Made by a program: the position numbers and the translations under genes. The notes below the pieces were generated by a model. The model saw nothing but the letters and a program-made list of their open reading frames with translations, ran no database searches and was not told where the DNA came from. Shown one piece after another: positions 1,365-60,721 of a stretch of 64,000 nt of DNA; the first letter of the stretch is position 1, and each line of letters opens with the position of its first letter. Source of the DNA: Callorhinchus milii (taxonomy: Eukaryota); assembly GCF_018977255.1 (NCBI RefSeq), contig NW_024704742.1:55492001-55556000 (forward strand), written 5' to 3'.

Positions 1365-2148
1365 CAGCATCACCATCCAAGGATGCACACTCCACTTCAC
1401 TGAACCAGTCTGGAACCTTGGCATCTTGTTTGACCCTCAACTGTTCTTTCTTTCCCATATCAGTGCCATGACCTGCTCTGCCTTCCCCGACCTCCGCAAC
1501 ATTCCCTGGCTCCGCCACTGCCTTTCCCCTCAGGCCGCTGAAACTCTCATCCACACATTTATTACATCTAAGCTTGACTATGCCAACTCCCTGCTTGTCA
1601 GCCTCCCCAACTCTTCCCTCCGCAAGCTGCAGATCATCAGAACCTTGCAGCTCATGTCCTCTCCCGCACCAACTCCATGATTCCCTCTACCCTCACCCGG
1701 CTCCACTGGCTCCCCATCCCCAGAGGATAGAGTTCAAAATCCTTCTCCTTGCCTTCAAAACCCTCCATGGTCTTACCCCCTGCTGATCCTATATCAACCT
1801 GTCCGCTCTCTCCACTCAGTAGGCTCCGGCCTGCTCCATGTGTCCCGCCAGGCCAGCCCCACCATTGGCAATCGGGCCTTCAGCCTCTCTGCCCTCACCC
1901 TTTGGAACTCTACCCCAAACACCAGCTTGCTTCATATCCCCCCCCCCCCACCCCCGCCACTTTATCTGCCCCACCATCGCAATTTGCCACCACTCTCTGG
2001 AGTTCCTACCTCCATCTTTCAAGGCATGTGAAGACCACGCTTTTGATTATCTTTTGCCCTCCCCAACTCACCTCCCTCAGCTCCCACCCCCAGCTCAGGT
2101 GTCAAGCTGACAGTGTCGAGCGCTTTGAGATGTCTTTCCAATGTGAAG
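1365..2148 (+). mobile_element. L2 (LINE2 clade) 3' fragment with degraded ORF2 C-terminus
   Basis: Frameshifted peptides FDPQLFF..HI, AETLIHTFITSKLDYANSLL, QRIEFKILLLAFKTLHG, IGNRAFS..LWNS, plus an L2-type tail. Confidence 0.9.
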
Positions 2149-2639
2149 AACTGACACTCCAATGCAGTGCGAGGACTAGCTGCATTGTTGAAGGTGTTAT
2201 TCTTTCGAGGTGCCATCTGCCTGTTCAGGTGGACATTAAAGATCTGATTCTTCAAAAAGAGAATGGTGTCCTGGCCAACAGTCCTCCAAATAAAAAAATG
2301 GTCATTCACTTCATGGCTGTTTACGACACATTGCTGTGTATGCAAATTGACTGCTGCGTTCGCCCACAAGACACAGTCACTCTACTTGACAGTAAATCCT
2401 GTGAAACACTTTGAGATGTCCTCCTGATGGAAAATCCGCTAAACCAAATGTAAGTACAGTATTATTATATGCTAACATTCTCGGGGGTGTTGCACTATTG
2501 GAGGTGCTGCCATTCAGAGAAAATATTAAACCCAAATTTTTCTCTGCTTATTCTGATGGATGGTAAAGATCCCATGAGCTATTTTGAACATCTGGTGCAA
2601 AATGCATTTAAAAGTGACTATAACCCTGTAAACCTTGCG

Positions 2640-3662
2640 CTTGATATAGCACTTACAATTGACATATCGCATCCTTGAGATGTCTCAAGGAGCTTCATAG
2701 AATTTTACTGGGAAATGCACTGACTGTGTTTATAGGTAAACATGGCAGTTAATTTTCACACAACAATGTCCCACAAACAGCCATAAATTAATGACCAATT
2801 TTATTTGATTGTTGGTCGAGACACTTCCCTTTTTCAATAGTGTCAAGGGATCTTTAACATCCACCTGAACTGGCAGATGAGCCTCGCTTTAACATCTCAT
2901 CTGAAAGACAGCAGCTCCAACAATGCAGCATCCGACTATCCTTCTTGGCGGGGGTAGTGGGATCTCCTTGCCACTGAACTGGCTCGAAGGAGACATGTTT
3001 GGCAATGGAATGTCAGAATCAAGCCTGTGGCCCTCATGGTAGTCTGGTTCCTGAGCCAGGCGGGTCTGCAGTATCCCAGGGCACTGCTGATGACATCATA
3101 GCCAGACTGGCTCATTGGTAGGACCTGGAAAGGCAGACCAGTCAATGGGGGCAGGGCATCCTCCCACTCAGTTCCTGTTAATCCTGCAAGCCAAAGCTCG
3201 AACGGTTAGGGTAGTCTTAACTGGGAAAGCTTGCCAATCAGCAATATCAACGGCAAGCTATGCGGTTTTAGCTGGTTAGACACCAGCAGTACCCCAATGC
3301 ACACTCTGGGGGGCCCCAAGCCTTGGCACTTGCCAACCTGCGCCTTTCTGGAATTAGGTAAGCAGGACACATCCAACCCTTTAGGGAGAGAGTGTGCATT
3401 CCATTCCAACAATCTATCTACCGAATTTCCATGTGTGGGTGGGATGCACGGAATTCTCATTTTGGTTTGATACTCATAAGCATGGTGATAGGTTTCCACA
3501 TGTGTCAGACAGCAGCGTGACTAAAATAAAATCAATGCAGCATTCCTCCCAACAATGCAATGGAGCATCACTTTAGACGATGAGTTTAACATCACAACAT
3601 GGGGCTTGAATCTACAGCTGTCTGACTCAGAGACGACTGCTACCAATTGAGCCAGGCTAACA
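2640..3662 (-). mobile_element. SacSINE1-like DeuSINE interrupted by the unclassified element
   Basis: Tail and Deu segment at 2640-2930 (gggatctttaacatccacctgaac...tttaacatctcatctgaaaga). tRNA-like head remnant at 3600-3662 (ctgactcagag...taccaattgagcca). Confidence 0.7.
2932..3531 (+). mobile_element. Unclassified structured A-tailed retroposon, copy A
   Basis: Homologous to 4 other loci in the window. Ends in gtgtcagacagcagcgtgactaaaataaaa and is flanked by an 11-bp direct repeat caatgcagcat (2921-2931 and 3533-3543). Confidence 0.8.
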
Positions 3663-3807
3663 CCTCAGCAGAGGAAGCAGAATTTAAGGGTGTTGACTGA
3701 ATGCATGCTCAAGCAGGTACAACACAATTTACATTTATATAGCACCTTTCACATTGGGAGGATAAAAATAATAATAATCCTTACATTTGATATAGCGCCT
3801 TATCACA

Positions 3808-4440
3808 GCAGCAAAAACAACAAAATTACATTTGTATAGCGACATTCACGCTGGTAGGACTTTCCAAGGAGCTGGACAGTCAGTGTTTCAGACCTGAGCT
3901 GGGGGTTGGGATTGTGGAGGGTGGGGGGGAAGCAGGATGATCAAAAGCATGGTCGAAGAGGAGGGTCTTGAGATGGGTCTTGAAGGAGGCAAGAAAGGAG
4001 GTGAGGCGGAGAGACTGTGGGATGGAGTACCAGAGGGTAGGGGCAGAGTCGCAGAAAGCCCGACTGCCAATGGCATCTTCACGTCTACAAGACATAGAAT
4101 ATCATGTCTTCTACAACAACAACAACAACAACAACAACAAGATTCCATTTATAGAGCGCCTTTCACTTCAGGAGGACGTCCCAAGGCACTGTACAGTTGG
4201 GTCAGGACCCGAGCAGGGGGGAAATGGTCAGGGTGAGGGGAGGGAAGGGAGGGGGCGAGGAGGGGGGAAATGGTCAGGGTGAGGGGAGGGAAGGGAGGGA
4301 GCGAGGAGGGAGTAGAGAGTCGAGAGTGGAGCTGAAGGCACGGTCAAAGAAAAGGTCTTGAGACCGGCCTTGAAGGAGGAAAGGGAGGAAGCAAGGCAAA
4401 GGCACTGGGGGATAGAGTTCCAGAGCCTAGGAGCTGAGAC
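3808..4440 (-). mobile_element. Two stacked L2 3' ends, (GTT)n tails
   Basis: Antisense peptides IGSRAF..APTLWYSIP..SFKTHLKTLLF and APRLWNSIP..SFKAGLKTF. (CAA)n at 4113-4140. Internal duplication of about 45 bp at 4216-4300. Confidence 0.85.
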
Positions 4441-6022: not shown

Positions 6023-6507
6023 TTTTTTTGGTTAGTTGGGTGTCTGACACATGCGGAATCCCATCACCATGCTTAAGCGTATCCAAACTAAGCTGAGATT
6101 TCCATGCAACCCACCTACACATGGAAATCCCAGAGGTAGATTATTGGAATGAAATGCACACTCTGTCCCTGGGAGAATGCATCCTTCTTACCTAATTCCA
6201 GAAAGTATTAGGTGCAGGTTGGCAAGAACCAAGGCTTGGAGACAAGAGAGTGGGCGTTGGGATATTGCTGGAGTCTAACCATCTAAAACCGAATAGCTTG
6301 CCATTGATATTGCTGTCCGAGAAAGCTTTCCCGCTGCTTGTCCAGCTAGGACAACCTTACCCATTGGGGCTTTCGCTTGCAGGGTTAATAAGAGTTGAGT
6401 GGGATGACACCCTGTCCCAGTGACTTGTCTGCCCTTCCAGGTCCTGCTGATGAGTCAGGCTGGGTGTGTTGTCATCAGCAGTGCCCTGGAATAAGGCGGA
6501 CCCGCCT
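6023..6507 (-). mobile_element. Unclassified structured retroposon, copy B (5'-truncated)
   Basis: Reverse complement matches 2932-3531 and ends at the same 3' end, with a T7 run at 6023-6029. Confidence 0.85.
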
Positions 6508-6618
6508 CAATCATACAATGTTTGTACAGGTTGTTCTCCCAGTATGCAAGGTTTAGATCAGAGATCCAGTTTGGTGAATGCAAACTGTTCAATATGTTTT
6601 GAGCCGCTAATGGAATCG

Positions 6619-6840
6619 AGGAGGAACTCAGCTTAGGGCAGGATTTACACTATTTGTGTAACATTTCTGAGTGTCCAGAATTTAGCAAATTGTTGAATTC
6701 AGTCTTGACTGCAATTTTTGAAGAACATGCAGAAAATCACTTTAAGATCAAGGCTCTATTTAAGAATTTGTCACATTTTGGATGCGCTGAAGTGCTACGT
6801 AAATAGAATAAATCTGGACACAGGTGCAATTTGTTCCCCC
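6619..6840. mobile_element. Old palindromic MITE-like element, copy 1 of 3
   Basis: The left arm (gatttacactatttgtgtaac...caaattgttgaattcagtcttga) is an imperfect reverse complement of the right arm (tcaaggctctatttaagaatttg...aaatagaataaatc). Related sequence at 8668 and 41805. Confidence 0.65.
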
Positions 6841-8218: not shown

Positions 8219-8667
8219 CAACTTGGCTAATTTATCAATGGGTCTAATTTGTGATATTTGTGAAATTGTTACAAAACATCACCTCTCTGCAGTTTAGTTC
8301 CATTTCAAGTTATAATGGGGATAAATTATAGGTCTAGATTACTCTATGTAGCATTTTAGAATGTTCCAAATTTATTAATAAATGCTGATCCTTATATTTG
8401 TCAAAGCCCCTTTTACCTTGGGAGGACATCTCTAAGCGCTTCACAGAATTTACTGTAAAGTGGAGTGAACACAGCAGCCAATTTGCACACATCAATGTCC
8501 CCAAAACAGCCATGTTCACTGCACTTAAGAGTAAATCCTGTGAAGTGCTTTGAGACGTTCTTCTGACCTGAAAGGTGGTATATCAAATGTAAAGCTTATT
8601 AATATTTGGGAGATTGTTGGCCAGGACACTGGAAGAAGCTCTTTTCTCCTTTCGAATAGTGCCATAA

Positions 8668-8840
8668 TTTGGCAAATTGTTGAATTCAGTTTTAACTTTG
8701 AAGTTGATTCCTTTGGTTCTTAAAATAACTTACAGAAAGCCGTAGTCAAAATGAAAGCAGTATTTAAGAATTTGCCAAATACTGCACTCCAAAATACTAC
8801 ATAAATATAATAAATCTAGACCCAGGTAGAATTTCTTCCC
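8668..8840. mobile_element. Old palindromic MITE-like element, copy 2 (partial)
   Basis: tttggcaaattgttgaattcag...tatttaagaatttgccaaa...aataaatctagacccagg. Confidence 0.6.
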
Positions 8841-10924: not shown

Positions 10925-11270
10925 TAATGAATAATAATAGTAATAGTCATCCTTGCTTTTGATATAGTCTTTGAGACATCACTAAGCGCTTCATAGAGTA
11001 TCCTGTAAAATGAACTGATTGTACATTTTGTGAGCGAAACACGGTAGCCAATTATCTACAGCAGTGTCCCACAAACAGTCATGGATTGAGTGACCAATTA
11101 TTATAATTTTTTNGAAGGAATTATTAACCCGGAAAAAGCGATCCACCAATTGACTAACAACCAGGTTCCTATTTCTTGCTCGGTAAACAGATGCGTGTGG
11201 AATAAGGAAACTTGCCCAATTGGAATCAAACCCAGGTCCTCTAGCTTGTGAGGCAAGTGCTCTAGCCACT
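10925..11270 (-). mobile_element. tRNA/Meta-like/Deu SINE, long form
   Basis: Matches the 14497-14875 copy. Contains the single N in the window (11113). Confidence 0.8.
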
Positions 11271-11323
11271 ATACAATGCATATTTTGTAGGTGAATGTGG
11301 CAGGCAATATGCACAAACCAAGC

Positions 11324-11882
11324 TTTTGTTTGGTCTGGTGTCTGACATATGTGGAAACCCATCACCATGCTTAAGAATATCCAAACCTAGCTGAGATTTC
11401 CATGCATCCCGCCTAATATAGAAATCCCAGAGCTAGATTGTTGGAAGGAATGCAAACTCTCTCCATGGTGGAACACATCCTGCTTACTTAATTCCAGAAA
11501 TATGAAGTGCAGGTTGGCAAGGCTTGGGGTCCTCAGAATGGGCTTGAGTCTAACCAGCTAAAATTGAATAGCTTGCCATTGATATTGCTGTCTTGAAAGC
11601 TTTCTCACTGCTTGTCCAGCTAGGACCACTCTACCCATTATGGTTTTGGCTTGCAGGGTTAACAGGAGCTGAGTGGGATAATTCCCTGCCCTTCCAGTTC
11701 CTGTTGTTGAGCCAGGCTGGCTGTGCTGGCATCAGGAGTGCCCTGGAATACTGCGGACCTACCTGTCTCAGGAACTGGACTACCGAAACGGCCACAGAGG
11801 ACTGGCTCAATTCTGAAGTTCCACTGGCAGGCATGCTTACCCCCACTCCCGGGAGTGCGCAGGTTTGAACCTCACGAGGTGG
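11324..11882 (-). mobile_element. Unclassified structured retroposon, copy C
   Basis: Same 3' end (tatgtcagacaccagaccaaacaaaa on -). The 5' side abuts a young SINE tail. Confidence 0.85.
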
Positions 11883-12201
11883 ATAATAATAATAATAATC
11901 CTTGCATTTGATATAGCGCTTTTCACGTCGGGAGGACGTCCCAAAGCGCTTCACAGAACACACTGTAAAGTGAATTGACTGTATATTTGTGGGCGAACGC
12001 GGCAGCTAATTGCGCACAGCAATGTCCCACAAACAGTCGTAGATTAAAAATGACCAATTTTATTATTGTTTTTGGTTTTGGAGGGATTATTATTAGGCGT
12101 GTGGAGTAAGGAAACTTGCCCAAGGTTTCGCCCTGCCTGGAATTGAACTCAGGTCTCTCACTTGCAAAGCGAGTGCTCTAACCACTGAGCTACAGGACTC
12201 C
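11883..12201 (-). mobile_element. Young tRNA-Ala-derived Deu SINE, short form, full length
   Basis: Head GGAGTCCTGTAGCTCAGTGGTTAGAGCACTCGCTTTGCAAGTGAGAGACCTGAGTTCAATTCC (A box, B box, TGC anticodon loop), Deu-like TTTGTGGGACATTGCTGTGCGCAATT, L2-like tail and (ATT)n. Confidence 0.92.
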
Positions 12202-14496
12202 ACAGATGGTAGGTACAAGTCACACAAGTCACACATTCAGCCATGAAGAGAATGATCCATTTCATTGTTGTCAGGACACCAGTCAAAACTCGCTTCATTT
12301 TTTAAATAGTACCAAGGGATCTGTAACATTATCTGAAGAGGCAGATGGGGCCTTGGTTTAACATCACATCCGAAGCTTGGTGCCTCCAACAATGCAGCAT
12401 TGCACTTGAATGTCAGCCTAGACTGTGAATGCAAATCTGCAAACCTGGCACTTGAACTCATACCCTTCTGTGTCAGGACATTCTGTTGAAGCGCTCAAGT
12501 TATCTGCCTCCTTGCAAATAAGAAAACAGATCCAGTAAATATTCTATGTTGTGCTGTTGTGGAGAATAGGCATGCAGTAATTGTGCTATATATACATGAA
12601 TGCTACTTTCTGTGCTGTTCTTGTTTCTTAATTCAAGGTATAATAATAATTGTTATTGTATTTAAAATAGTGCCTTATCACATCCTTATGATGGGGTAAT
12701 GCAATGTATCTGCATTTCTTGACACAAGTCTACATCTGAACCAGTGGCACTATCAATCCGATACGCTAGTGTCCCTAGTGTTTGCTTATATTGCAGCAAT
12801 GGCTGCGGACTTGCAAACTCATCAATTGGGTCCTCTGTATTCATGATATACTCAGTTGTTTACAACAAGCTAAGCACAAAATAAGGAAACCAGCGGACTC
12901 TGTTGCCGAGAGGATTGTTTGCAATGAACATTATGTGAACTGCAGCATTGTATGCAGTCACAGGGGTGGGTAGCTCGGCATCAGAATGAGTGTGTCAAGA
13001 CTCCAGTTATACAGTAGCAGTTCTAGCTTGTTACCACAGACACATGGAATTGCCCCTCACTCTTTCATACAACTGCAGTGGTCCTTAGATATCTTCACTG
13101 GTTGAAAATTATTTCATGGTAAACCGAAAAACATGACGGTGTGTGGGCTGAAAGGTTATTGTGCTCATTTTTATTGTTTTTCCTTTCGAGCTGAGGGATG
13201 CTGTTGGTGTGAGTAATTACAAACAACTCAAACCCACTTCTTTGATTGAAGCTGTCACCATTGACCATTTGCTGTTGAGAGGTGCATAGTCTTAGCCTGC
13301 AAGGCCATTTTGCCTTACAATTGCAGATCGTGTATTGGAAGCCAGGTTTCTGCAGTTATTAAAATGATACAGCTTGGAAACTGAACTTTCCACAATTCTG
13401 CACAATCTTAATATTAAGGACAAAATTGTCTTACAGTCAGGTTGTAACCGAGTATAATACGCAGTCTGTCTTATCGCAATACGGTAAATTTATTCACTCT
13501 GTGCTCCTATAGTCTATGCAAGGATTATTATTATTATTACTCTGTTTAAGGTTCAATGTAGGATTGAATATATCGAAGGTGAATTACCTGGATATGCTGG
13601 AGCCCCTCCACCCCATGACATTTTTTAAGTGTCAATGTCTGGGAAGCTTGGTTGTGTTTGGCTGGTGAGTACTGGAATTGTGTCTTTCTTCTCAACACAA
13701 TACTCAGATTAATGCTGATATCCCACCAGCTGGCAGCCAAAAGCTGTGATTTCTGTGCAAAAAATATAATATTCTGTATATATATGTGAATAATAATAAT
13801 CTTTGAATTTGATATAGCGCCTTATTACATCTTTCTTTTTGTCGGTCTATCTATATGACTTTCTTTCTCTTTGTTTGTTTCTCTCTCTCTCTTAAGCTAA
13901 GGTTTTGAATTCAGTCAGTTTTGAGTCAGCACTTAATCACTTCATCTCAACAAAGTTCATTCAATTTCTAAATAAAACCGGCAACTTCCTCAAATTAAAC
14001 AGTACTCACTTTTTAAATAACATGTTTCAAGTCAGATGAAGACAGTGTTGATGGGAAGCCATATTGTATTGGGTAAAACATTCCATTTTTCATAATGTGT
14101 TTGAAGTGATAATTAAGAAATTTCACCTCAATTTCTTTTTTATGGGCGAAACATCCCTTTTTAAGATCAATTTAGCAAATTTCTCCTCTCCTCCACCTTT
14201 CTTGTAGGTGGTGTTCACAACTGAGATTACAAATCCACAGATGCCAAAATTTCTTCAACAGCTTTCCCAAATGTCCATTCTTCATACGTTACTCTGGACA
14301 GGAGCGTTGACAGACTATTTGTTAGGTGGCAGATCACAGTTAGGTCTGATTCTGTCCTCTCTGACGTCTGTTCATAGGCATTTTCCTCAGCAGACGTCAC
14401 TCCATATTAACCTAGGGATGTTGTAGGGAAGGAAAACAAATTAACAGAACAAAGAGGGACATAGAAATTATAATTATACTGTATTATTGACAGTAT

Positions 14497-16980: not shown

Positions 16981-18685
16981 CTTTTAAAAAAATCCTTTCT
17001 TCACCCTATGGGTGTCATGCGTCATATCATCAGTAGTCTTGACAAATGGCTGCCAAATTAGTAAATCTGATCTCCGTTGACTCAAGGAAGGATAATTGCA
17101 GTCTTAATTGGAAGAAGCCTGATGATCCATGTTTGATTAAACTGAACAGCATCTGGAAATTGAAGTGTACCTGAACAGTTCTACATTTGAAGAGATCATA
17201 TCAACAAGTAATTATGCAGCATATGCCAGTCACTGGTTAGGTCAAGAGCGACTGACTGGCTGTTTTGAAGCTTGAATACAGAATACAATGCATTGCTGCT
17301 GTGAGAATCAGTTAAGGTTTACAAAGAAGGGGATTTTTTTTGACAAACAAAATGACTTGGATATCAGGGATTGATAATTATTGCGCCATGAATAAAAGTG
17401 CAATCAGCAGAAGCGGTTTGTATTAGCTGCAGAATTCATTGTGATGAAAGACTGAGGGGGTGCATCCTGATAGAGATTGTGAAAGGATTCAATAAGGTGG
17501 ACATTTGTAATTTTTCTAAATAAACCCTAGGAAAATATTTGTACCATGGCTTGTTCAATTGTAAGCAATAAATCACCTTAATAATATAAGAAAGCTCTCC
17601 AGTCTCCACATACAACTATGGACTTCACCCCGCTCATTGCCTCTCAGGCGAGAAAGCTCTGCATACAGAACTCTTAATCTCAAATTCAAGCAGTGAAAAT
17701 GTCCATAATAATCTTATATGTCTATTCAAACATGCCTTCCTTCCTCCATGACATGTATCCTGCTGGAGTATTAGTTATTTCAGTCTGCACTTGCTCTATC
17801 CTCCAGTGAGGATCTCACAAGTAGGTTGATGGTTACCAGTAGAAGTAGAACCTCCTAATAATAATAATAATTCTTACATTAGATGTAGTGCCTTTTCACA
17901 TCAGGAGGACATCTCAAAGCATCTCACAGAATATTCCTTAGAGTGATTTTTTTATATGGGTGAACGTGACATCCAATTTAAACACAGCAATGACCCACAA
18001 ACAGTCATGACATTTTTATTGGGGAATTGATTACACAGAATAGGGCCTGAGGATCTTAACTGGAACTATTTTAGGCACATACAGTAGTGTAAATATGCCA
18101 CCATGAGCATATTAAAAACACTGATCAGGGAATATGTGATTGAGGTGGGGTGAATTTCCTTTGGGTAAATTGGTACCTATGTCAACAGTATTCACTTTCA
18201 TGTGAGTTAACTGGTTCAATTTAGTGGGATTTCACACCAACCAATAAATATACATAGTGGACAAAATTTTTTATTTTTTTGCGAAAAGTTTGTAAATAGT
18301 GGGTCCTGCCAGTACCCAGAGTCCAAATGTGTCACCAGCTGATCTTCTGGAATACCCTCAGTCACTGATTTCTTGTGGGTACCAGAATCTTCCACTGGCC
18401 ACAATTTAGTTTCATAGAAATTGGAAGCAAGTCAGGAGCGCATATGACCCAATGTTACCAAAAAGGCCATGTCCATGATAGTGCTGGTCATGTATCTGTG
18501 GGGTGGGGTGAGAGTCTGTGTGTGGGGGGGAGGGGGTGGGGAGGAGAATAGGAATTAGGAATGAAGATGGGTTGTGCCTGGATTAGGAATACTTTCTTGC
18601 TCACCTTTGGAGTTTGAGATCAAATTCTGAGATGCTGAGATGTGTTGCCCACCGGAAAGCTTGTAAGGAGCTCCTTGTAATTATC

Positions 18686-19410
18686 ATCCACCTAGTGAGG
18701 GCTGAAACCCATGCTTGTTAGATGTCAATCGACCAACTTGTGACAATCCTCCTCAGGAGGGGGGGGGGCGGGAAGCAGGGTCTCCTTGGAGCTGAACTGG
18801 TTGCAAGATGACATGTTTGGAAACGGAATGTCAGAATCGAGCCAGACCTGTGTAGTCTGGTTCCTGCGCCAGGCGGGTCAGCAGTATTTCAGAGCACTGC
18901 TGATGATAGCCTACCTCATCGGCAGGACATGGAAGGGCAGACCAGTCATTGGGAATCAAAATATCATTCACTTCATGGCTATTTGTGGGTCATTGCTGTG
19001 TTCAAATTGAATGTCACGTTCACCCATAAAAAAGTCACTCTAAGGAATATCCTGTGAAACTCTTTGAGATGTCCTCCCGATGCGAAAAGGGAATCACTCA
19101 GCTCCTGTTAACTCTGCAAGTGGACCAGCAGCAGGACAGCTTGCCAAACAGCGATATCAATGGCCAGTTATGTGATTTTACCTGGTCAGGTTCCAGCAGT
19201 ACCCCAACGCACACTGTGGGGTCCCCAAGCCTTGGCTCTTGCCAACCTGCACCTAATACTTTCCAGAATTGGGAAGCAGGATGCGTTCCTCCAGGGAGAG
19301 AGTGTACATTCCAACAATCTATCTCTGGATTTCCATGTGTTTTGTTTGGATACTCTTAAGCATGACAATGGGTTTCCGCATGTGTCAGGCACTCGGCTGA
19401 CCCCCAAAAA
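18686..19410 (+). mobile_element. Unclassified structured retroposon, copy D (longest; contains an inserted SINE piece at about 18959-19088)
   Basis: Shares atccacct(a/c)gtgagg with copy C. Ends tgtgtcaggcactcggctgacccccaaaaa. Confidence 0.85.
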
Positions 19411-23062: not shown

Positions 23063-24520
23063 CATAGAATCACAGAATCATAGAATTTTACAGCACAGAA
23101 GGAGGCCATTTGGCCCATCGTGCTTGTGCTGGCTCTTTGAAAGAGCTATTCAATTAATCCCACTCCCCGCTCTTTCCCCATAGACCTACAAATTATTCCC
23201 TTTCAAGTACCTATCTCATTTCCTTTTGAAAGATATTATCAAATGTGCTTCCACTACCCTTTCACACAGTGCTTTCCAGACCGTAACAATTCTCTGGATA
23301 AATTTTTTTTTCTCGTCTCCCATCTCGTTCTTTTGCCAATTAAATTTGTGTCCCTGGTTACTGACACAGCCGCCAGAGGAAAAGTTTCTCCCTATTACTC
23401 TATCAAAACCCCTTATAATTTTTAACACCTCAATTAAATCTTCCCTCAACCTTCTCTGCTCTAAGGAGAATAATCCCAGCTTCTCTGGTCTCTCCACATA
23501 ATTGCAGTCCCTCCACATAATTGCAGTCCCTCATCTCTGGTATCATTCTTGTAAATTTCCTCTGCACCCTCTCCAAGGCCCAGAAATCCTTCCTAAAGTG
23601 TGGTGCCCAGAATTAGACACAATATTCCAGCTGAGGCCTAACCAGCATTTTGTAAAAGTTCAATATAACTTCCTTGCTCTTATACTCAATGCCTCTATTT
23701 ATAAAGCCAAGAATTCCATATCCGCTTTATCAACTTGTCCTGCCACCTTCAAAGATTTGTGTATGTGAACCCTATGTCTTTCTGCTCCTGTAACCCCTTA
23801 AAATTGTACCATTTATTGTATATTGCCGCTCCTGATAATAATCCCTCAAAAAAATCAACAGTAATAAATTGGTCACTTCCATCCACGACTGTTTGTGGGA
23901 CACTGCTGTGTGCAATTGGCTGCCACGTTTCGCCCACATAATTTACAGTCAATTCACTTTACAGTATATTCTGTGAAGCGCTTTGAGATGCCTAGAAGAC
24001 ATGAAAAGCGCTATATCAAATGCAAAGATTATTATTATTATTCCTCCTCCCAAAATCCATCACTTCACACTTCTTTCTCTGCATTAAATTCCATCTGTCA
24101 TGTGTTTTCGCATTTCACCAGCCTCTCTATGTCCTCCTCCAGTCTGCTACCATCCTCCTCAATGGTTACTACCTTCCCAAATTTTGTGTCATCTGCAAAC
24201 TTTAAAATTATACTCCCTGAACCCAAGTCCAGGTCATTAATGTATATTAAAAAGAGCAGCGGTCCTAAAACCGACCATTGGGGGACACCACTGTATACCT
24301 CCTTCCAATCTGAAAAACAACCGTTTACCACTACCCTCTACTTTCTGACTCCCAGCCAGTTTCGGGTTCCATGCTGCTATTATTCCCTTAATTCCATGGT
24401 CTTCGATTATACTAACAAGTCTATTATTTGGCACTTTATCAAATGTCTTTTGAAACTCCATATATATACAACAAACTCACTACCTTCATCAACCCTCTCC
24501 GTTACTTCATTGAAGACCCA
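23063..24520 (-). mobile_element. CR1-clade LINE ORF2 (reverse transcriptase) 3' portion, with a SINE inserted at about 23835-24041
   Basis: Peptides [68 protein letters not shown], and a (TTCTATGA)n-type tail. Confidence 0.93.
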
Positions 24521-24536
24521 AATAAGAGTATAAATT

Positions 24537-24806
24537 GCAAGCTAAGCGGTTTTAACTGATTAGACACCAGTGCACACTCTGGAGTCTCCAAGCCTTGACT
24601 CCTGACAACCTATGCCTAATACTTTCTGAGAATTAGGTAAACAGGATTTATCCCTCCATGGTGAGTGCAAATTCTATTCCAACAATCTATCTCTGGGATT
24701 TCCATGTGTAGGTGGGCTGTGTGGGATTGTCAGGTTGGTTTGGATAATGTTAAGCATGGTGTTGAGTTTCTGAATGTGTCAGACACCCAGCTGACTCCCC
24801 CAAAAA
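24537..24806 (+). mobile_element. Unclassified structured retroposon, copy E (5'-truncated)
   Basis: gcaagctaagcggttttaactg...gaattaggtaaacagg...tgtgtcagacacccagctgactcccccaaaaa. Confidence 0.8.
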
Positions 24807-25607: not shown

Positions 25608-26461
25608 TGTAAATTAATTACAGGTATTGTGCATTGCTTCCTAAATTGTGAATCAATGCCATTTAGATTTCTATGGTGGTTTTCATGTCAGGAGTACTTT
25701 TCATAGCACTTCACATAGCTGACTGGGCACACAACAACAATAACTTGGATTTATATAGCACTCTCTTCATGTGGGGTAGCGTCCTGGGGAGCTTGACAGT
25801 GCGGAGTCTGAGCCAGGAGAAGGTGGGAGGTGACCATAAGCATGATCGAAATGGAAGGTCTTTAGTGGGGATTTGAAGGTGGGGAGGGAGGGGAGAGAGA
25901 GGAGCGTAGAGGGTGGAGAGGAGGGAAGATAACCAAAAGTGCAGTTGAAAAGGTAGGGCTTTAGAAGTGGGGATTGCTGACATAGACACAATGAGCTGAA
26001 TGGCTTTATTCTGTGCTGTAAATCTCTATGGTTCTATGGGAGGGAGGGGGCTAGGTGGAAGGTAGAATTCTTATCAAATTTGAGGAGAGAAACTGATTAA
26101 GTAAGTCTATTAATAATGAGTTGCCATTTTTTGTGGGCTACATGTGCAATATTGGGGAACATTTAAAGAAGGATATGAGATGTCTCCTCTCTTATAAAAA
26201 ACATTCAATCACAAATCTGCTTCACCTTAGACTTGTTGAATGTAAAGATGAGCCAACTTTATGACTGTCATTTTACTTTTTACAAAGATAAGACTGAATT
26301 GATCAATTTGCTGAATGTTGGACCTGCTAAAATGAAATAGTTAATTTAGACCAGATAATTTTTTTAAAAAACAAGAACAGTTTTCTGATGTTGAGCTAAA
26401 TACAAAGGATGCAACATAATGTTTTATAAAGAAGTCTCCCATTAGAAGCATAAATCAAATA

Positions 26462-27124
26462 GCAGTATTTCTTCGCTTCGTAAAATAAAAGTTCAACATT
26501 TAAGTTCACCACTGAACACGCTTGAAGAAAACTCTTATGAATTTGGCATAGAATTCTGGGAGGAAGTACAGTATCAGTACTAAGATTGCCCACAAGGTTA
26601 GTCTCTGAGAGTATTGGTGCTACAGCTGTACTAGTACTTGAGGCTACTTCCAACAATAGCCTGATCTGAGCATCAGTACATCCAAAGGAAGACTCCTGGC
26701 GACATGCCTGAGGTGTGGAGGAGAGTAGTCGGTAACAAAGCACTATTGAACAAAACAGATTATTCAGGTATGTGGTGTAATTCACCACCTAACTGTTCTT
26801 AGCCAACAGGTGAACTGCGACATAAAGATGTATTGCCTCTATTTAGTTCCCATAACATCCAGTACATTTGCAGTGTACTCCCTATCCGACTCTATGTATG
26901 TAAGGTGAACTGGATGAGATTGAAGGGTTTAAGAACAATTCTAGAGATAGATGATCAACACTCTGGGGAATATGGATGTTTTTCCACTGCTGGGAACAGG
27001 CGAATGTCACCTCTGAAATGCAGTATTTCTTCACATAGTAAAATAAAAGTTTAATACTTAAATTCACCATTGAACGGATTTGCAGAAAACTGTTAAGAAT
27101 TTGGCGTAGAATTCTGGGAGGAAG
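26462..27124. repeat. Local gapless 105-bp direct duplication (26462-26566 and 27020-27124)
   Basis: gcagtatttcttc...gtaaaataaaagtt...tagaattctgggaggaag occurs twice, with about 16 mismatches by manual count. Confidence 0.85.
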
Positions 27125-29630: not shown

Positions 29631-30444
29631 ATGATATGATATTCACAAACTGGTTAGTGAGATTTGTTTGAGACTTGCCTATTGGCAGATTGTGAATCTG
29701 GTGATTTACAATAATATGAATCTTGAAATTGAATATGGCAAACTGGAAATCTTGCCATATTCAATTGCAAGATTCATATCACTGTATTCAAATATTCATA
29801 TCAATATTTACCATATTTCTTTGGGATAAAGAAATCCCTTCATCCCTCCAGAAAACCCACTGAAACAGCCTCCCATCACAGCATCAAACCATTTTTTAAA
29901 TGAGTCCAGTTACCTGGCCTCAACTACCCTTCTTAGCAACCTATTCCAGTTGTTCATTTCCTTCTGGGTAAAGAAAACAATTCTGCTATCTGTCCTGAAA
30001 TTGCCCTTTGCAACTCTAAACTCTAAAAAGTTTACTTTTTCAATGCCATTTGAAATGTTATACACCTCTGAGATCTCCCTTGATTTAGTAACTGGAATCC
30101 AGTTTGCTAACATTGTATTGCTCTAAAAGCATTTCTTAACTTGTAAATTGTAAAGTAAATTATAAGCCATGCATTGCGCTCTAGTTTTTCCTTTTTTTAC
30201 CTTCCTTGGCTTGATCTGCATAGAAGGACGAAAATCCGTGCTGTCCTAGGCCCATAAAATTGATTTTTCGCAATCAAGAACTGTACCACCTGCTGCAGTT
30301 TCTCTATGTGATCCTTAAATGAGTTAAGGAAGACATTCATTTTTACAGTATATTCTGTGAAGCGCTTTGAGATGTCTCGAAGACATGATAAGGTGCTACA
30401 TCAAATGCAAGGATTATTATTATTATTATTATTAAGAAATACCC

Positions 30445-41804: not shown

Positions 41805-41990
41805 GGAGGAAATTCCACTTGGGTCTGGATTTACTCTATTTATATAACCTTTCAGATTTTCGCAAATTGTTGAATTCTGTCTTAATTTAAGCTGTTTCTC
41901 TCCAGTTCTTAAAAGAACTTAGAGAAGACCTGCTTAAAATTTGACAAAATCTAGATGCTCTGAAACACCAGATAAATGGAGTAAATGTTA
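41805..41990. mobile_element. Old palindromic MITE-like element, copy 3
   Basis: ggaggaaattccacttgggtctggatttactctattt...gcaaattgttgaattctgtc...aatttgacaaaatctagatgctctgaa. Confidence 0.6.
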
Positions 41991-58226: not shown

Positions 58227-60721
58227 TAGAAATGGCACAGAGCCCTACTAATATAATTCTGGTTCTAGCAACCTACTTCATTGTTTTCATGTGAATGGAC
58301 AAAAGAGAGATCAGCAGCTCTCAATAATGCTTTAGCATCATGTTTCAGAACAACTTGCGCTGTCTTCATGGAAACTGGCAAAATGGCTATTTTTAAATTT
58401 CCGATGTGATTTTCTTCCAGATTAGAGTTCCTGCAGGTCAACAAGATTTCTAACTAAATTTTTTTACAATTAAGGAATTCAATTAATCCATTCTGCAATG
58501 ATTATCTTGTTTGATATTTTTAGTACAAATTATAATATTATAATTACATACAAATGGAATTTGTTTTTTCACAAGTTCACAAGAGGGGTACAGATGAAGT
58601 CATACTAAAGCTGTTGTATGCACAATTCTGATCACTGCAACATAAGAGAGCAGCCCAATCCCTGGAGGCAGTAGAGAAGGGAGCATTGAAGCTGATCCTC
58701 TGTTTTAAAGGGATGATAACCAATAGGGCTCTTAAACCTAAAAATGAGACCTCTCAGAGAGGGTATTTTAGAGGTATATACAATGCTTAACAGGATTGAG
58801 ACTGTAAACATTGCACTTTCCTCCTCTTAGAATGCAAATGCAGCACTTATTTTAATCCTTATTTTAAGTTTCACAGATTTGAGTCTGGTATTCGATTAAA
58901 TCTTGGTGATGCTGGGATTTGTAAATTAGACTTTTCTAAGAGTCAAGCATGGGTTATCTTCTGATTGGACTGGATTGGATCCATTCTGCAATGATTATCT
59001 TGTTTGATATTTTTAGTACAACAGCAATAAGTATTTACAATTGAAGTGAACACAAAGAGGAAAATGTAATGTGGTATTAACACCATTGAAATAAGCTTTA
59101 ATGTTAAGGGTGCTACACTCGGTTAGAAATGTCCGTTGAGTTAGATGGCCAATTTTCTTAAACTAATATTTAAGAAAAGGTTAACAGGCCAATGCTACAT
59201 TGTGTATTGAATCGCTTTTACTCATTAGCAGAATGATTTGAATTTCAGCATAATATGTAACACCATTTAGAAAGAGGAACACTCTTCTGCCCTAATAATT
59301 GACAAGGATGTGTCCATTAACTCCAGCACGTGCCTGAAGACTTACGGCAACGGTTCTCAAATAGCAAGCAAGGTAATCTTTTGTTTAGATTGCCAAAGGC
59401 TAGAACATGACCTGAATCGTTTGATACTTGCAAACATTTCATGGATTTCATTTTCACAGGTTTCATTTACTTGCAAATTTGGCTAGCTTCGAGCAATGGG
59501 GAAGACCATAAATTTTTCCAAAAACTACATTTTCACCGTTGAAAATATGAACTATCTGTAAGGAACTTGGTGATGGGCATCAAAATTAAATTTTTTGAAT
59601 GCGGGTCTAAAACTGTGGGTGTTAGGCTCTCACAATTTTTATCCATAGATTAACTAAAAATAAATTATTCAGGCATGGTTTAAGGGCTCTAATGGATATT
59701 CCTCAACGGTGAAGATTAGTAATTTTCTCTTTGGTGTGAAACAGTGGTTCAAGTAATGGGCCTTACTAGGTGTTGATCTTGTGTTTGGGACAGCGGGTTG
59801 TGAGTTCAAGTCCCATGTCAGAATCTGAGCTCATATTCTATTTATGTAGTGTTGGCTGAGGAGCGCTAACTCTTGTTGTGTCTATCTGTTCAGAAGGATA
59901 TTAAAGATCCATTGATACTATTCAAAAAGAGGAGTGTCTCCTGGTATCCTGACCAACATTCCTCCCAGTTATTTGGCCATTCACAATGACTGTCTGTAGG
60001 GCTTCACCATGTGAAAACTGGCTCCTGGGTTGTTCTCCTTGGAGCCATTTGAATGCTGATAGTTTTCTGGCCAAGGACGAGAGCAGGAATTTCATCTCCT
60101 TCCTAGTAGATTCACAGTCCGAACCTGATTTGTTTAAAAAAAAGGAACTTAGAACCTTAAGAGTTAAAATTTACAAATTAAAAATAAAAAAAGCTCTTGC
60201 CTCAGGGTCAACAAAATGTCAGTGTTAGGATCCAGACAGTAACTTCTGAGGTTAGTGATAGTTATTTGCTATTTTTAACTGTTTTTTTGATCGATGTGAT
60301 AATTATCAATGGTGATATTGCATGGTACAATTTTGACCGCAGGCTGTGTTATTGTGATATGTGTGGGTAGAAATTAAACGATAATAATCCCAGAGCCTTT
60401 CATGTTGGGAGGAAGTGTCTGTGTATGAGTGGTGGGTGGGTGCGGGTGTTTAAGCTTATAAATTACTTGTTTCAGTTATTCTGAAGTCCAATTCTATCAC
60501 TTGCCCAGTGAATCTCTGGTACACATTATGTGAGTAACTGACTAGGTTAAAAGCAAGTAACATTTTCTTCACAGAAATATAGCCTCCATTTCCCTGGATA
60601 TATGAAGTGTCTTGATTGACATTCCGTAACAGTAATAAGGATGCGTAATGACATGATAAAAATAAAACAAGTTACAAGTTTGGTATTAACATGTAGCATT
60701 GATTTCAAAATGTAAGTGCAT

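What the first reader, a model, noticed from the sequence alone, without database searches (positions are those of the whole stretch)
2921..3543. Unclassified, hairpin-rich, A-tailed retroposon family (5 copies in the first 25 kb)
Seen: copies at 2932-3531(+), 6023-6507(-), 11324-11882(-), 18686-19410(+) and 24537-24806(+). They share one 3' end (TGTCAGACACCCAGCTGAC + A-rich) and differ in 5' truncation. Copy A has an 11-bp TSD (caatgcagcat) inside an older SINE. There is no tRNA head, no L2/CR1 tail and no recognisable ORF. Established: 5' truncation, A-tail and a 7-20 bp TSD mark target-primed reverse transcription, as with L1/Tx1-type machinery. Inference: this is a non-autonomous retroposon, the 3' UTR of an unseen LINE, or retrocopies of a structured host ncRNA of 600 nt or more. 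I do not recognise it, but it may already be in a repeat library.
Basis: partly seen in the sequence, partly recalled or inferred. Interest (0 to 1): 0.72.

Follow-up and report, generated by a model that had tools for sequence, protein, structure and literature searches.

The report
Truncated tails of an old retrotransposon
Five decayed, front-shortened copies of a very common A-tailed jumping-gene fragment lie in this cartilaginous-fish DNA; they are ordinary retrotransposon debris, most likely the non-coding tail of a LINE whose coding part was not found.

Summary
The five copies are real (71-78% pairwise identity by blastn). They share one 3' end plus an A-run and have staggered 5' ends. 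Copy A has an exact 11-bp target-site duplication (TSD) inside an old Deu-type SINE. Copy C also sits in an old SINE, with an 8-12-nt overlap that may be a decayed TSD. B, D and E show none.

Sequencing contigs show a very abundant family in three organisms, with the A-tail family-wide. The host looks like a chimaera. Rfam, Pol III box, ribozyme and Pfam scans found nothing convincing. The ancestral RNA folds well, but the hairpins show no covariation.

Target-primed reverse transcription is well supported. The parent was not found, because no genome was available.

Best reading (0.6): 5'-truncated copies of the ~0.65-kb non-coding 3' end of an old LINE, clade undetermined. Main rival (0.23): a Bov-A-like internally deleted RTE derivative, based on weak post-hoc resemblances. 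Unchecked earlier notes on this genome point to the LINE-tail reading. Both readings are known kinds, so interest is low.

The parts
2921..2931 (+). 5' copy of the 11-bp TSD of copy A, inside an old Deu-type tRNA-SINE on the opposite strand
2932..3522 (+). Copy A, 5'-truncated by about 60 nt relative to copy D
3075..3129 (+). Long hairpin kept in A, B, C, D (91% of cells paired; no compensatory change)
3254..3337 (+). Block with a weak resemblance to the first half of the conserved RTE 5'-UTR (Ceph) domain; the domain's best-conserved second half is not recognisable by eye
   Evidence: top ranks, but within the window-wide null; for the published text
3365..3524 (+). Terminal 160 nt: a 16-bp hairpin (about 3418-3460), a short terminal stem-loop, and a weak collinear resemblance to cattle Bov-A
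3523..3531 (+). A-rich tail of copy A
3533..3543 (+). 3' copy of the 11-bp TSD
6023..6508 (-). Copy B, 5'-truncated, 7-A tail, no TSD found
11324..11888 (-). Copy C, main part; nested in an old SINE whose two halves overlap by 8-12 nt in 3 of 4 reference SINE copies (probable decayed TSD)
12201..12219 (-). Probable 5'-most piece of copy C, beyond a young tRNA-SINE (about 11885-12200) that inserted into it; 12 of 15 nt match D at 18674
   Evidence: 0.7% of 3550 tiles score as well
18674..19410 (+). Copy D, the longest, with internal deletions; its true 5' end is not known
18587..18721 (+). Open frame of 44 codons ending in a stop inside D's 5' part; candidate decayed end of the parent ORF, not confirmed
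   Evidence: no support
18964..19092 (.). SINE tail fragment inserted into copy D, with an 8-nt repeat on both sides
24520..24806 (+). Copy E, shortest and most diverged; abuts a decayed RT-bearing LINE fragment; no TSD found

Best explanation
The copies are dead, 5'-truncated insertions of the 3' end of an old, very abundant non-LTR retrotransposon (LINE). The roughly 0.65-kb shared sequence is its structured, non-coding 3' UTR. The element's endonuclease nicked the target, its reverse transcriptase primed on the A-tailed 3' end, and most events stopped within 0.3-0.75 kb, leaving staggered 5' ends and a short TSD. SHOWN: fixed 3' end, A-tail, staggered 5' ends, TSD in A, high abundance. INFERRED: that the family continues upstream into an RT ORF, and that the hairpins served RNA recognition or stability. 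The clade is undetermined.
For: No copy is cut at the 3' end, while the 5' ends are staggered: about 290, 485, 590, 580 and 700+ nt. The A-run is family-wide. A has an 11-bp TSD and C a probable decayed one. No Pol III A+B box pair, tRNA or other Rfam head was found. The apparent common start of C and D is only the end of the second-longest copy, and D has no TSD there, so a defined 5' end is not shown. At their shared 5' block C and D read the same seven residues with two silent third-position differences, then diverge by indels and stop within 7-11 codons. This weakly fits an ORF end followed by a UTR; one of the two differences may belong to the SINE tail. Abundant short 3' fragments are the usual fate of LINEs (established knowledge).
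Against: No RT or endonuclease sequence is joined to any copy. The frame upstream of D has no credible homologue (one search gave only two WD40 artefacts) and ranks 3584 of 6844 scored tiles against a fish-L1 C-terminal profile. No listed loose end shows a run-on into coding sequence, but 3703 rows were hidden and the stretch laid was truncated copy A. TSDs are missing in B, D and E. The terminal 160 nt resemble Bov-A, whose first half is RTE 5' UTR; this reading must treat that as chance.
Confidence: 0.6

Rival explanations
1. A bipartite, ORF-less derivative of an RTE-clade LINE, like Bov-A, RTESINE or MAR4: a long piece of 5' UTR joined by internal deletion to the short 3' tail, about 0.73 kb in all, moved in trans by the parent RTE.
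For: A Bov-A majority built from 11 fetched cattle units aligns collinearly with the family's last ~140 nt, on the sense strand and flush with the A-tail. Shuffle p was 0.014-0.02. It beat 99.6-100% of 6038 window tiles, and 0, 0, 18 and 30 of 1900 GC-matched tiles reached it under four scoring schemes. The majority scored at least as well as any single copy, and the antisense did not score. Two published motifs of the RTE 5'-UTR domain together rank B and A first in the window and C sixth. Such derivatives are common for RTE and may end in poly(A) or a microsatellite (PMC5786205); AviRTE has an ~800-bp 5' UTR and a 13-bp TSD (PMC4844689).
Against: All of these tests were chosen after I saw the resemblance by eye. 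A family HMM finds nothing in the BovB/Bov-A loci. A Bov-A HMM gives B and E only E=3 and E=22, and a tile scan in the same call did not rank the family ends at the top. The BovB 5' UTR alone gives p=0.12. In one search, 4 of 40 null windows reach the same joint score. The best-conserved half of the RTE domain is not recognisable (by eye). The RTE and RTE-derived ends printed are mostly microsatellites, not poly(A). No defined 5' end is shown, and no ribozyme was found.
Confidence: 0.23
2. A head-less SINE-like family or mass retrocopies of a structured host non-coding RNA, mobilised through its A-tail by a LINE with relaxed template choice.
For: The majority sequence folds well (z -3.5). It is non-coding and A-tailed, and no parent LINE was found.
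Against: Rfam has no match at a gathering score. There is no covariation. Copies differ by subfamily-like blocks in the 5' part, which fits a self-propagating lineage better than copies of one conserved gene. The abundance is close to that of the major Deu-SINE.
Confidence: 0.07
3. A bipartite derivative or tail of an Ingi/Vingi or R2-type element, or a terminal repeat of a Penelope, DIRS or LTR element, or a non-autonomous DNA transposon.
For: Ingi, Vingi and R2 also produce ORF-less bipartite elements (PMC5786205). An 11-12-bp TSD with poly(A) is recalled for Ingi (not checked).
Against: No hammerhead core or HDV-like fold was found in the copies (descriptors from memory, no positive control). 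By eye there is no resemblance to the Vingi 5' end printed and no terminal inverted repeat. An 11-bp TSD with an A-tail and one-sided truncation does not fit LTR or DIRS integration (established knowledge).
Confidence: 0.08

Closest known systems
5'-truncated 3' ends of poly(A)-tailed LINEs (L1/Tx1 group and other APE-type clades)
   Same: Fixed 3' end, A-tail, staggered 5' truncation, TSD of about 11 bp, no Pol III head.
   Different: The parent ORF was not found, and the fish-L1 C-terminal profile does not match. The UTR is about 50% GC, strongly folded, and ends in a stem-loop with no AATAAA before the tail in the majority sequence.
Bipartite non-autonomous RTE derivatives (Bov-A, RTESINE1/2, MAR4_MD, WALLSI3, RTE-N2_Lch; PMC5786205)
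   Same: No ORF, no small-RNA head, weak collinear resemblance of the last 140 nt to Bov-A, compatible TSD length.
   Different: Poly(A) tail rather than a microsatellite; resemblance below HMM significance; no defined 5' end, partner RTE or ribozyme shown.
CmiSINEs (SINE2-1_CM, SINE2B-1_CM) and SacSINE1-CM of the elephant shark, partnered by L2-2_CM (PMC5499810)
   Same: Probably the same host group and overlapping age; these SINE types host copies A and C and interrupt C and D.
   Different: They have tRNA heads and L2-type tails; the family shares no sequence with the window's SINE or L2 repeats.

Membership tests
Non-LTR retroposon (TPRT product) | Fixed 3' end with A-rich tail and variable 5' truncation | tested here: met
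Non-LTR retroposon (TPRT product) | Target-site duplication | tested here: inconclusive
   exact in 1 of 5 (A), probable and decayed in C, not found in B, D, E
Autonomous LINE 3' end | Longest copies continue into an RT ORF | tested here: inconclusive
   44-codon open frame upstream of D with weak silent-change hint; no homologue; no genome held
L1 clade (teleost type) | ORF2 C-terminal motif upstream of the 3' UTR | tested here: not met
   profile from 91 of 120 fetched ORF2 proteins; D tile rank 3584 of 6844
Tx1 clade | ORF2 C-terminal motif and RT phylogeny | not testable with these tools
   no Tx1 reference could be fetched; the resemblance is recalled only
Bipartite RTE derivative | 3' end homologous to an RTE tail | tested here: inconclusive
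   3' half of Bov-A p 0.013-0.026; HMMs not significant
Bipartite RTE derivative | Body homologous to an RTE 5' UTR | tested here: inconclusive
   BovB 5' UTR p 0.12; domain motifs top-ranked but within null, 4 of 40
Bipartite RTE derivative | Defined 5' end and a partner RTE in the same genome | not testable with these tools
tRNA-, 5S- or 7SL-headed SINE | Small-RNA-derived head with Pol III boxes | tested here: not met
   Rfam; only one B-box-like word, in C alone
L2- or CR1-mobilised SINE of this genome | Tail shared with the window's L2/CR1/SINE repeats | tested here: not met
   blastn word 7, E up to 0.5: A, B, C, E hit only each other apart from one 25-nt chance-level hit
Ribozyme-bearing retroelement (HDV-like, hammerhead, twister) | Catalytic core fold | tested here: inconclusive
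   no Rfam hit on A or B; descriptors negative but lacked a positive control, and copies are about 10% decayed
Repbase or Dfam named family | Match to a library consensus | not testable with these tools
   no repeat library is held; five family motifs were not found in paper full texts

The most novel reading that the evidence does not exclude
A very abundant SINE-like family of chimaeras, about 0.73 kb long, with no tRNA, 5S or 7SL head and no LINE parent for its body, derived from an undescribed structured RNA and copied through its poly(A) tail.
Probability: 0.05. Interest if true: 0.7.

Novelty: new member of a known kind. Interest (0 to 1): 0.2.

Why it matters
As a LINE tail it matters for repeat annotation only. 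It marks an abundant poly(A)-tailed retrotransposon lineage besides L2 and CR1 in a chimaera-type genome, a possible source of machinery for poly(A) retrocopies there (inference). If it is a bipartite RTE derivative, it extends a known pattern to holocephalans; paper searches listed no such report, though Repbase and Dfam could not be checked. Only the low-probability novel case would surprise a specialist.

Tried and rejected
GENOME AND RUNS. The whole genome is not held. No RNA holder was listed. Run X13 is only guessed to be RNA, so its contigs say nothing on expression. Summed contig depth is not a copy number and is used only as a sign of high abundance. Orthologous empty sites in organisms B and C could not be told from paralogous SINE copies.

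COLLECTION SCANS. A pattern built jointly from the family and the RTE domain found 0 loci in viral and metagenome contigs; its 4 window hits are circular and not counted. The RTE-domain motif gave 9 viral and 2 prokaryote loci with no meaningful similarity to the family. The BovB protein found no relative in viral contigs.

RNA. The Rfam miRNA-model hits on B's hairpins are far below gathering scores. A twister-like look of A 3176-3235, seen beside the RTE-2_EBu 5' end, got no Rfam support. The second helix was entered in the wrong register and is replaced.

PROTEIN. Pfam on 4 family ORFs gave 0 hits. Pfam on 122 of 169 window ORFs of 72 aa or more showed only two RVT_1 fragments of other repeats and noise. 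The two hits of the D-upstream peptide are WD40-repeat artefacts. A whole-ORF2 L1 profile found no L1 fragment in the window.

IDEAS DROPPED. I first took the common start of C and D as a defined 5' end; it is only the end of the second-longest copy. A candidate TSD for D (2 mismatches) is at chance level, 18%. All five copies lie in the first 25 kb; this is borderline (about 5% by a hand-calculated range test) and was not pursued.

Full report
VERDICT. [quoted passage not shown] Its parent was not identified, because no genome is held for this window. The best reading is 5'-truncated tails of an old LINE (0.6). The main rival is an internally deleted RTE derivative (0.23). Both are known kinds.

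OBSERVATION. blastn with copy A returns the four other copies at 71-78% identity. An HMM of the copies finds no others except one weak hit at E=0.064. All end at the same 3' point followed by A-rich letters and start at different places. Distance from the leave-one-out majority is 9-11% for A-D and 19% for E. Copy A is bracketed by an exact 11-bp repeat, matched by 0 of 200 random flank pairs, and its flanks map to overlapping parts of a paralogous SINE. Copy C is also nested in an old SINE: its flanks overlap by 8-12 nt in 3 of 4 reference copies, and a 15-nt piece beyond a young inserted SINE matches D at 18674. No TSD was found for B, D or E within 1500 nt. D carries an inserted SINE fragment.

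ABUNDANCE, HOST, AGE. Laying contigs of four runs on 2780-3700 at 80% likeness placed 26,873, 7,361, 16,993 and 13,306 contigs, including those on the SINE flanks. In X1 the summed depth over the element is 5,700-154,000 per bin, against 7.3 for the one exact unique contig and 207,000 for the Deu-SINE core. The tool warns this is not a copy number; I infer thousands to tens of thousands of copies. The family is in organisms A, B and C. Loose ends behind 3511 read into an A-run in 309 (X1) and 167 (X11) contigs. The SINE letters behind 2930 in X1 are, by eye, the reverse complement of 29 nt of SINE2-2_CM as printed, which points to the elephant shark or a close chimaera (inference). With the rate in PMC5499810 (1.0-1.1e-3 per site per My) 10% is roughly 100 My; that paper's alternative rate gives far older dates.

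ANATOMY. There is no Rfam match at a gathering score in the copies, no A+B box pair, no Pfam hit in 4 family ORFs, and at least three stops in each sense frame of the majority. The majority folds at z -3.5, where 15 background pieces range from -2.7 to +1.5. Two long hairpins are 87-91% paired across copies but show no covariation beyond shuffles, as expected for neutrally decaying copies of a folded ancestor. Hammerhead and HDV-like descriptors, written from memory and without a positive control, found nothing.

THE RTE LEAD. I recalled a likeness to Bov-A and tested it with cattle-like loci fetched by a published motif; L002 holds an EN-RT ORF. For: a Bov-A majority from 11 of 19 blast hits (those of 85 nt or more) aligns with the last ~140 nt, on the sense strand and flush with the tail. 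Shuffle p was 0.014-0.02; it beat 99.6-100% of 6038 tiles; and 0, 0, 18 and 30 of 1900 overlapping GC-matched tiles reached it. Two motifs of the conserved RTE 5'-UTR domain jointly rank B and A first in the window. Against: the family HMM finds nothing in these loci; the Bov-A HMM gives E=3 and E=22; the BovB 5' UTR alone gives p=0.12; 4 of 40 null windows reach the joint motif score; the best-conserved half of the domain is not recognisable; and the tests were post hoc. The result is suggestive only.

THE LINE-TAIL LEAD. Earlier notes on this genome describe a ~630-bp hairpin repeat with at least 7 copies per 64 kb, read as the 3' UTR of an L1/Tx1-like LINE (e1-7812807), and a six-copy A-tailed family read as the tail of an APE-type LINE (e1-7812094). 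These notes are unchecked and I could not show they concern this family. It is plausible, since this is the only abundant repeat in the window's self-comparison that I could not assign to SINE, L2 or CR1 types. They made me re-examine D. A 44-codon open frame runs through 18587-18718. In the shared block C and D encode the same seven residues with two silent differences, then diverge and stop. A Tx1-like look of this peptide is recalled, not tested. Searches found no homologue, only WD40 artefacts, and a profile of 91 of 120 fetched fish L1 ORF2 C-termini ranks it 3584 of 6844. On my own calls the LINE-tail reading leads modestly, from the poly(A) tail, staggered ends, lack of a shown 5' end and the commonness of such debris. 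The notes moved my ranking but are not counted as evidence.

MECHANISM. Shown: fixed A-tailed 3' end, variable 5' ends, one exact TSD, nesting inside and by SINEs. From established knowledge: these are marks of TPRT by a non-LTR element. Inferred: an autonomous parent upstream, and a role of the terminal stem-loop in template recognition.

LITERATURE SEEN. PMC5786205: abstract, main text parts 1-4 of 5, supplement parts 1, 2, 3 and 12 of 15 plus two searches; its Fig. S4 alignment gave almost no text and may bear on the RTE lead. PMC7245038: passages and supplement file 2. PMC5499810: parts 1-2 of 6; supplements not readable. Passages only: PMC3747384, PMC8501958, PMC4350176, PMC4844689, PMC13708176. 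Search listings; none showed a description of this family. Repbase and Dfam could not be searched, and a family this abundant is probably in a repeat library (inference).

SCORES. Interest 0.2; new member of a known kind. The novel case (a head-less SINE class from an unknown RNA) has probability 0.05 and interest 0.7 if true.

Noticed in passing
window 11270-12500: Three-level nesting: an old Deu-type SINE holds copy C, and a young tRNA-SINE inserted at an ATT-like word near C's 5' end, in the same orientation.
   Followed up: partly
window 18964-19092: A headless SINE tail fragment inside copy D is flanked by the same 8-nt word on both sides.
   Followed up: partly
window 3176-3235: A family block loosely resembles the twister-like 5' end of hagfish RTE-2_EBu as printed; Rfam twister models do not hit.
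   Followed up: partly
window 29706-29787: A hairpin hit on both strands by several miRNA models below their gathering scores, probably a short inverted repeat.
   Followed up: no
window 8658-8840, 6670-6838, 41805-41986: A small repeat of about 190 nt whose copies match each other in both orientations, so it may be a palindromic MITE-like element; one copy lies about 160 nt upstream of copy B.
   Followed up: no
L018, L019, L020 (about 2000-4060): Three large virus contigs (186-211 kb) each carry a ~485-aa ORF; the one tested (L018) has fish L1 ORF2 proteins as its best relatives and is far shorter than them.
   Followed up: partly
window 1-25000 versus 25000-64000: All five copies lie in the first 25 kb and none beyond; borderline clustering.
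   Followed up: no
window 26457-26566 and 27016-27124; 58486-58528 and 58979-59021: Two local direct duplications, of 110 nt (85% identical) and 43 nt (100%).
   Followed up: no
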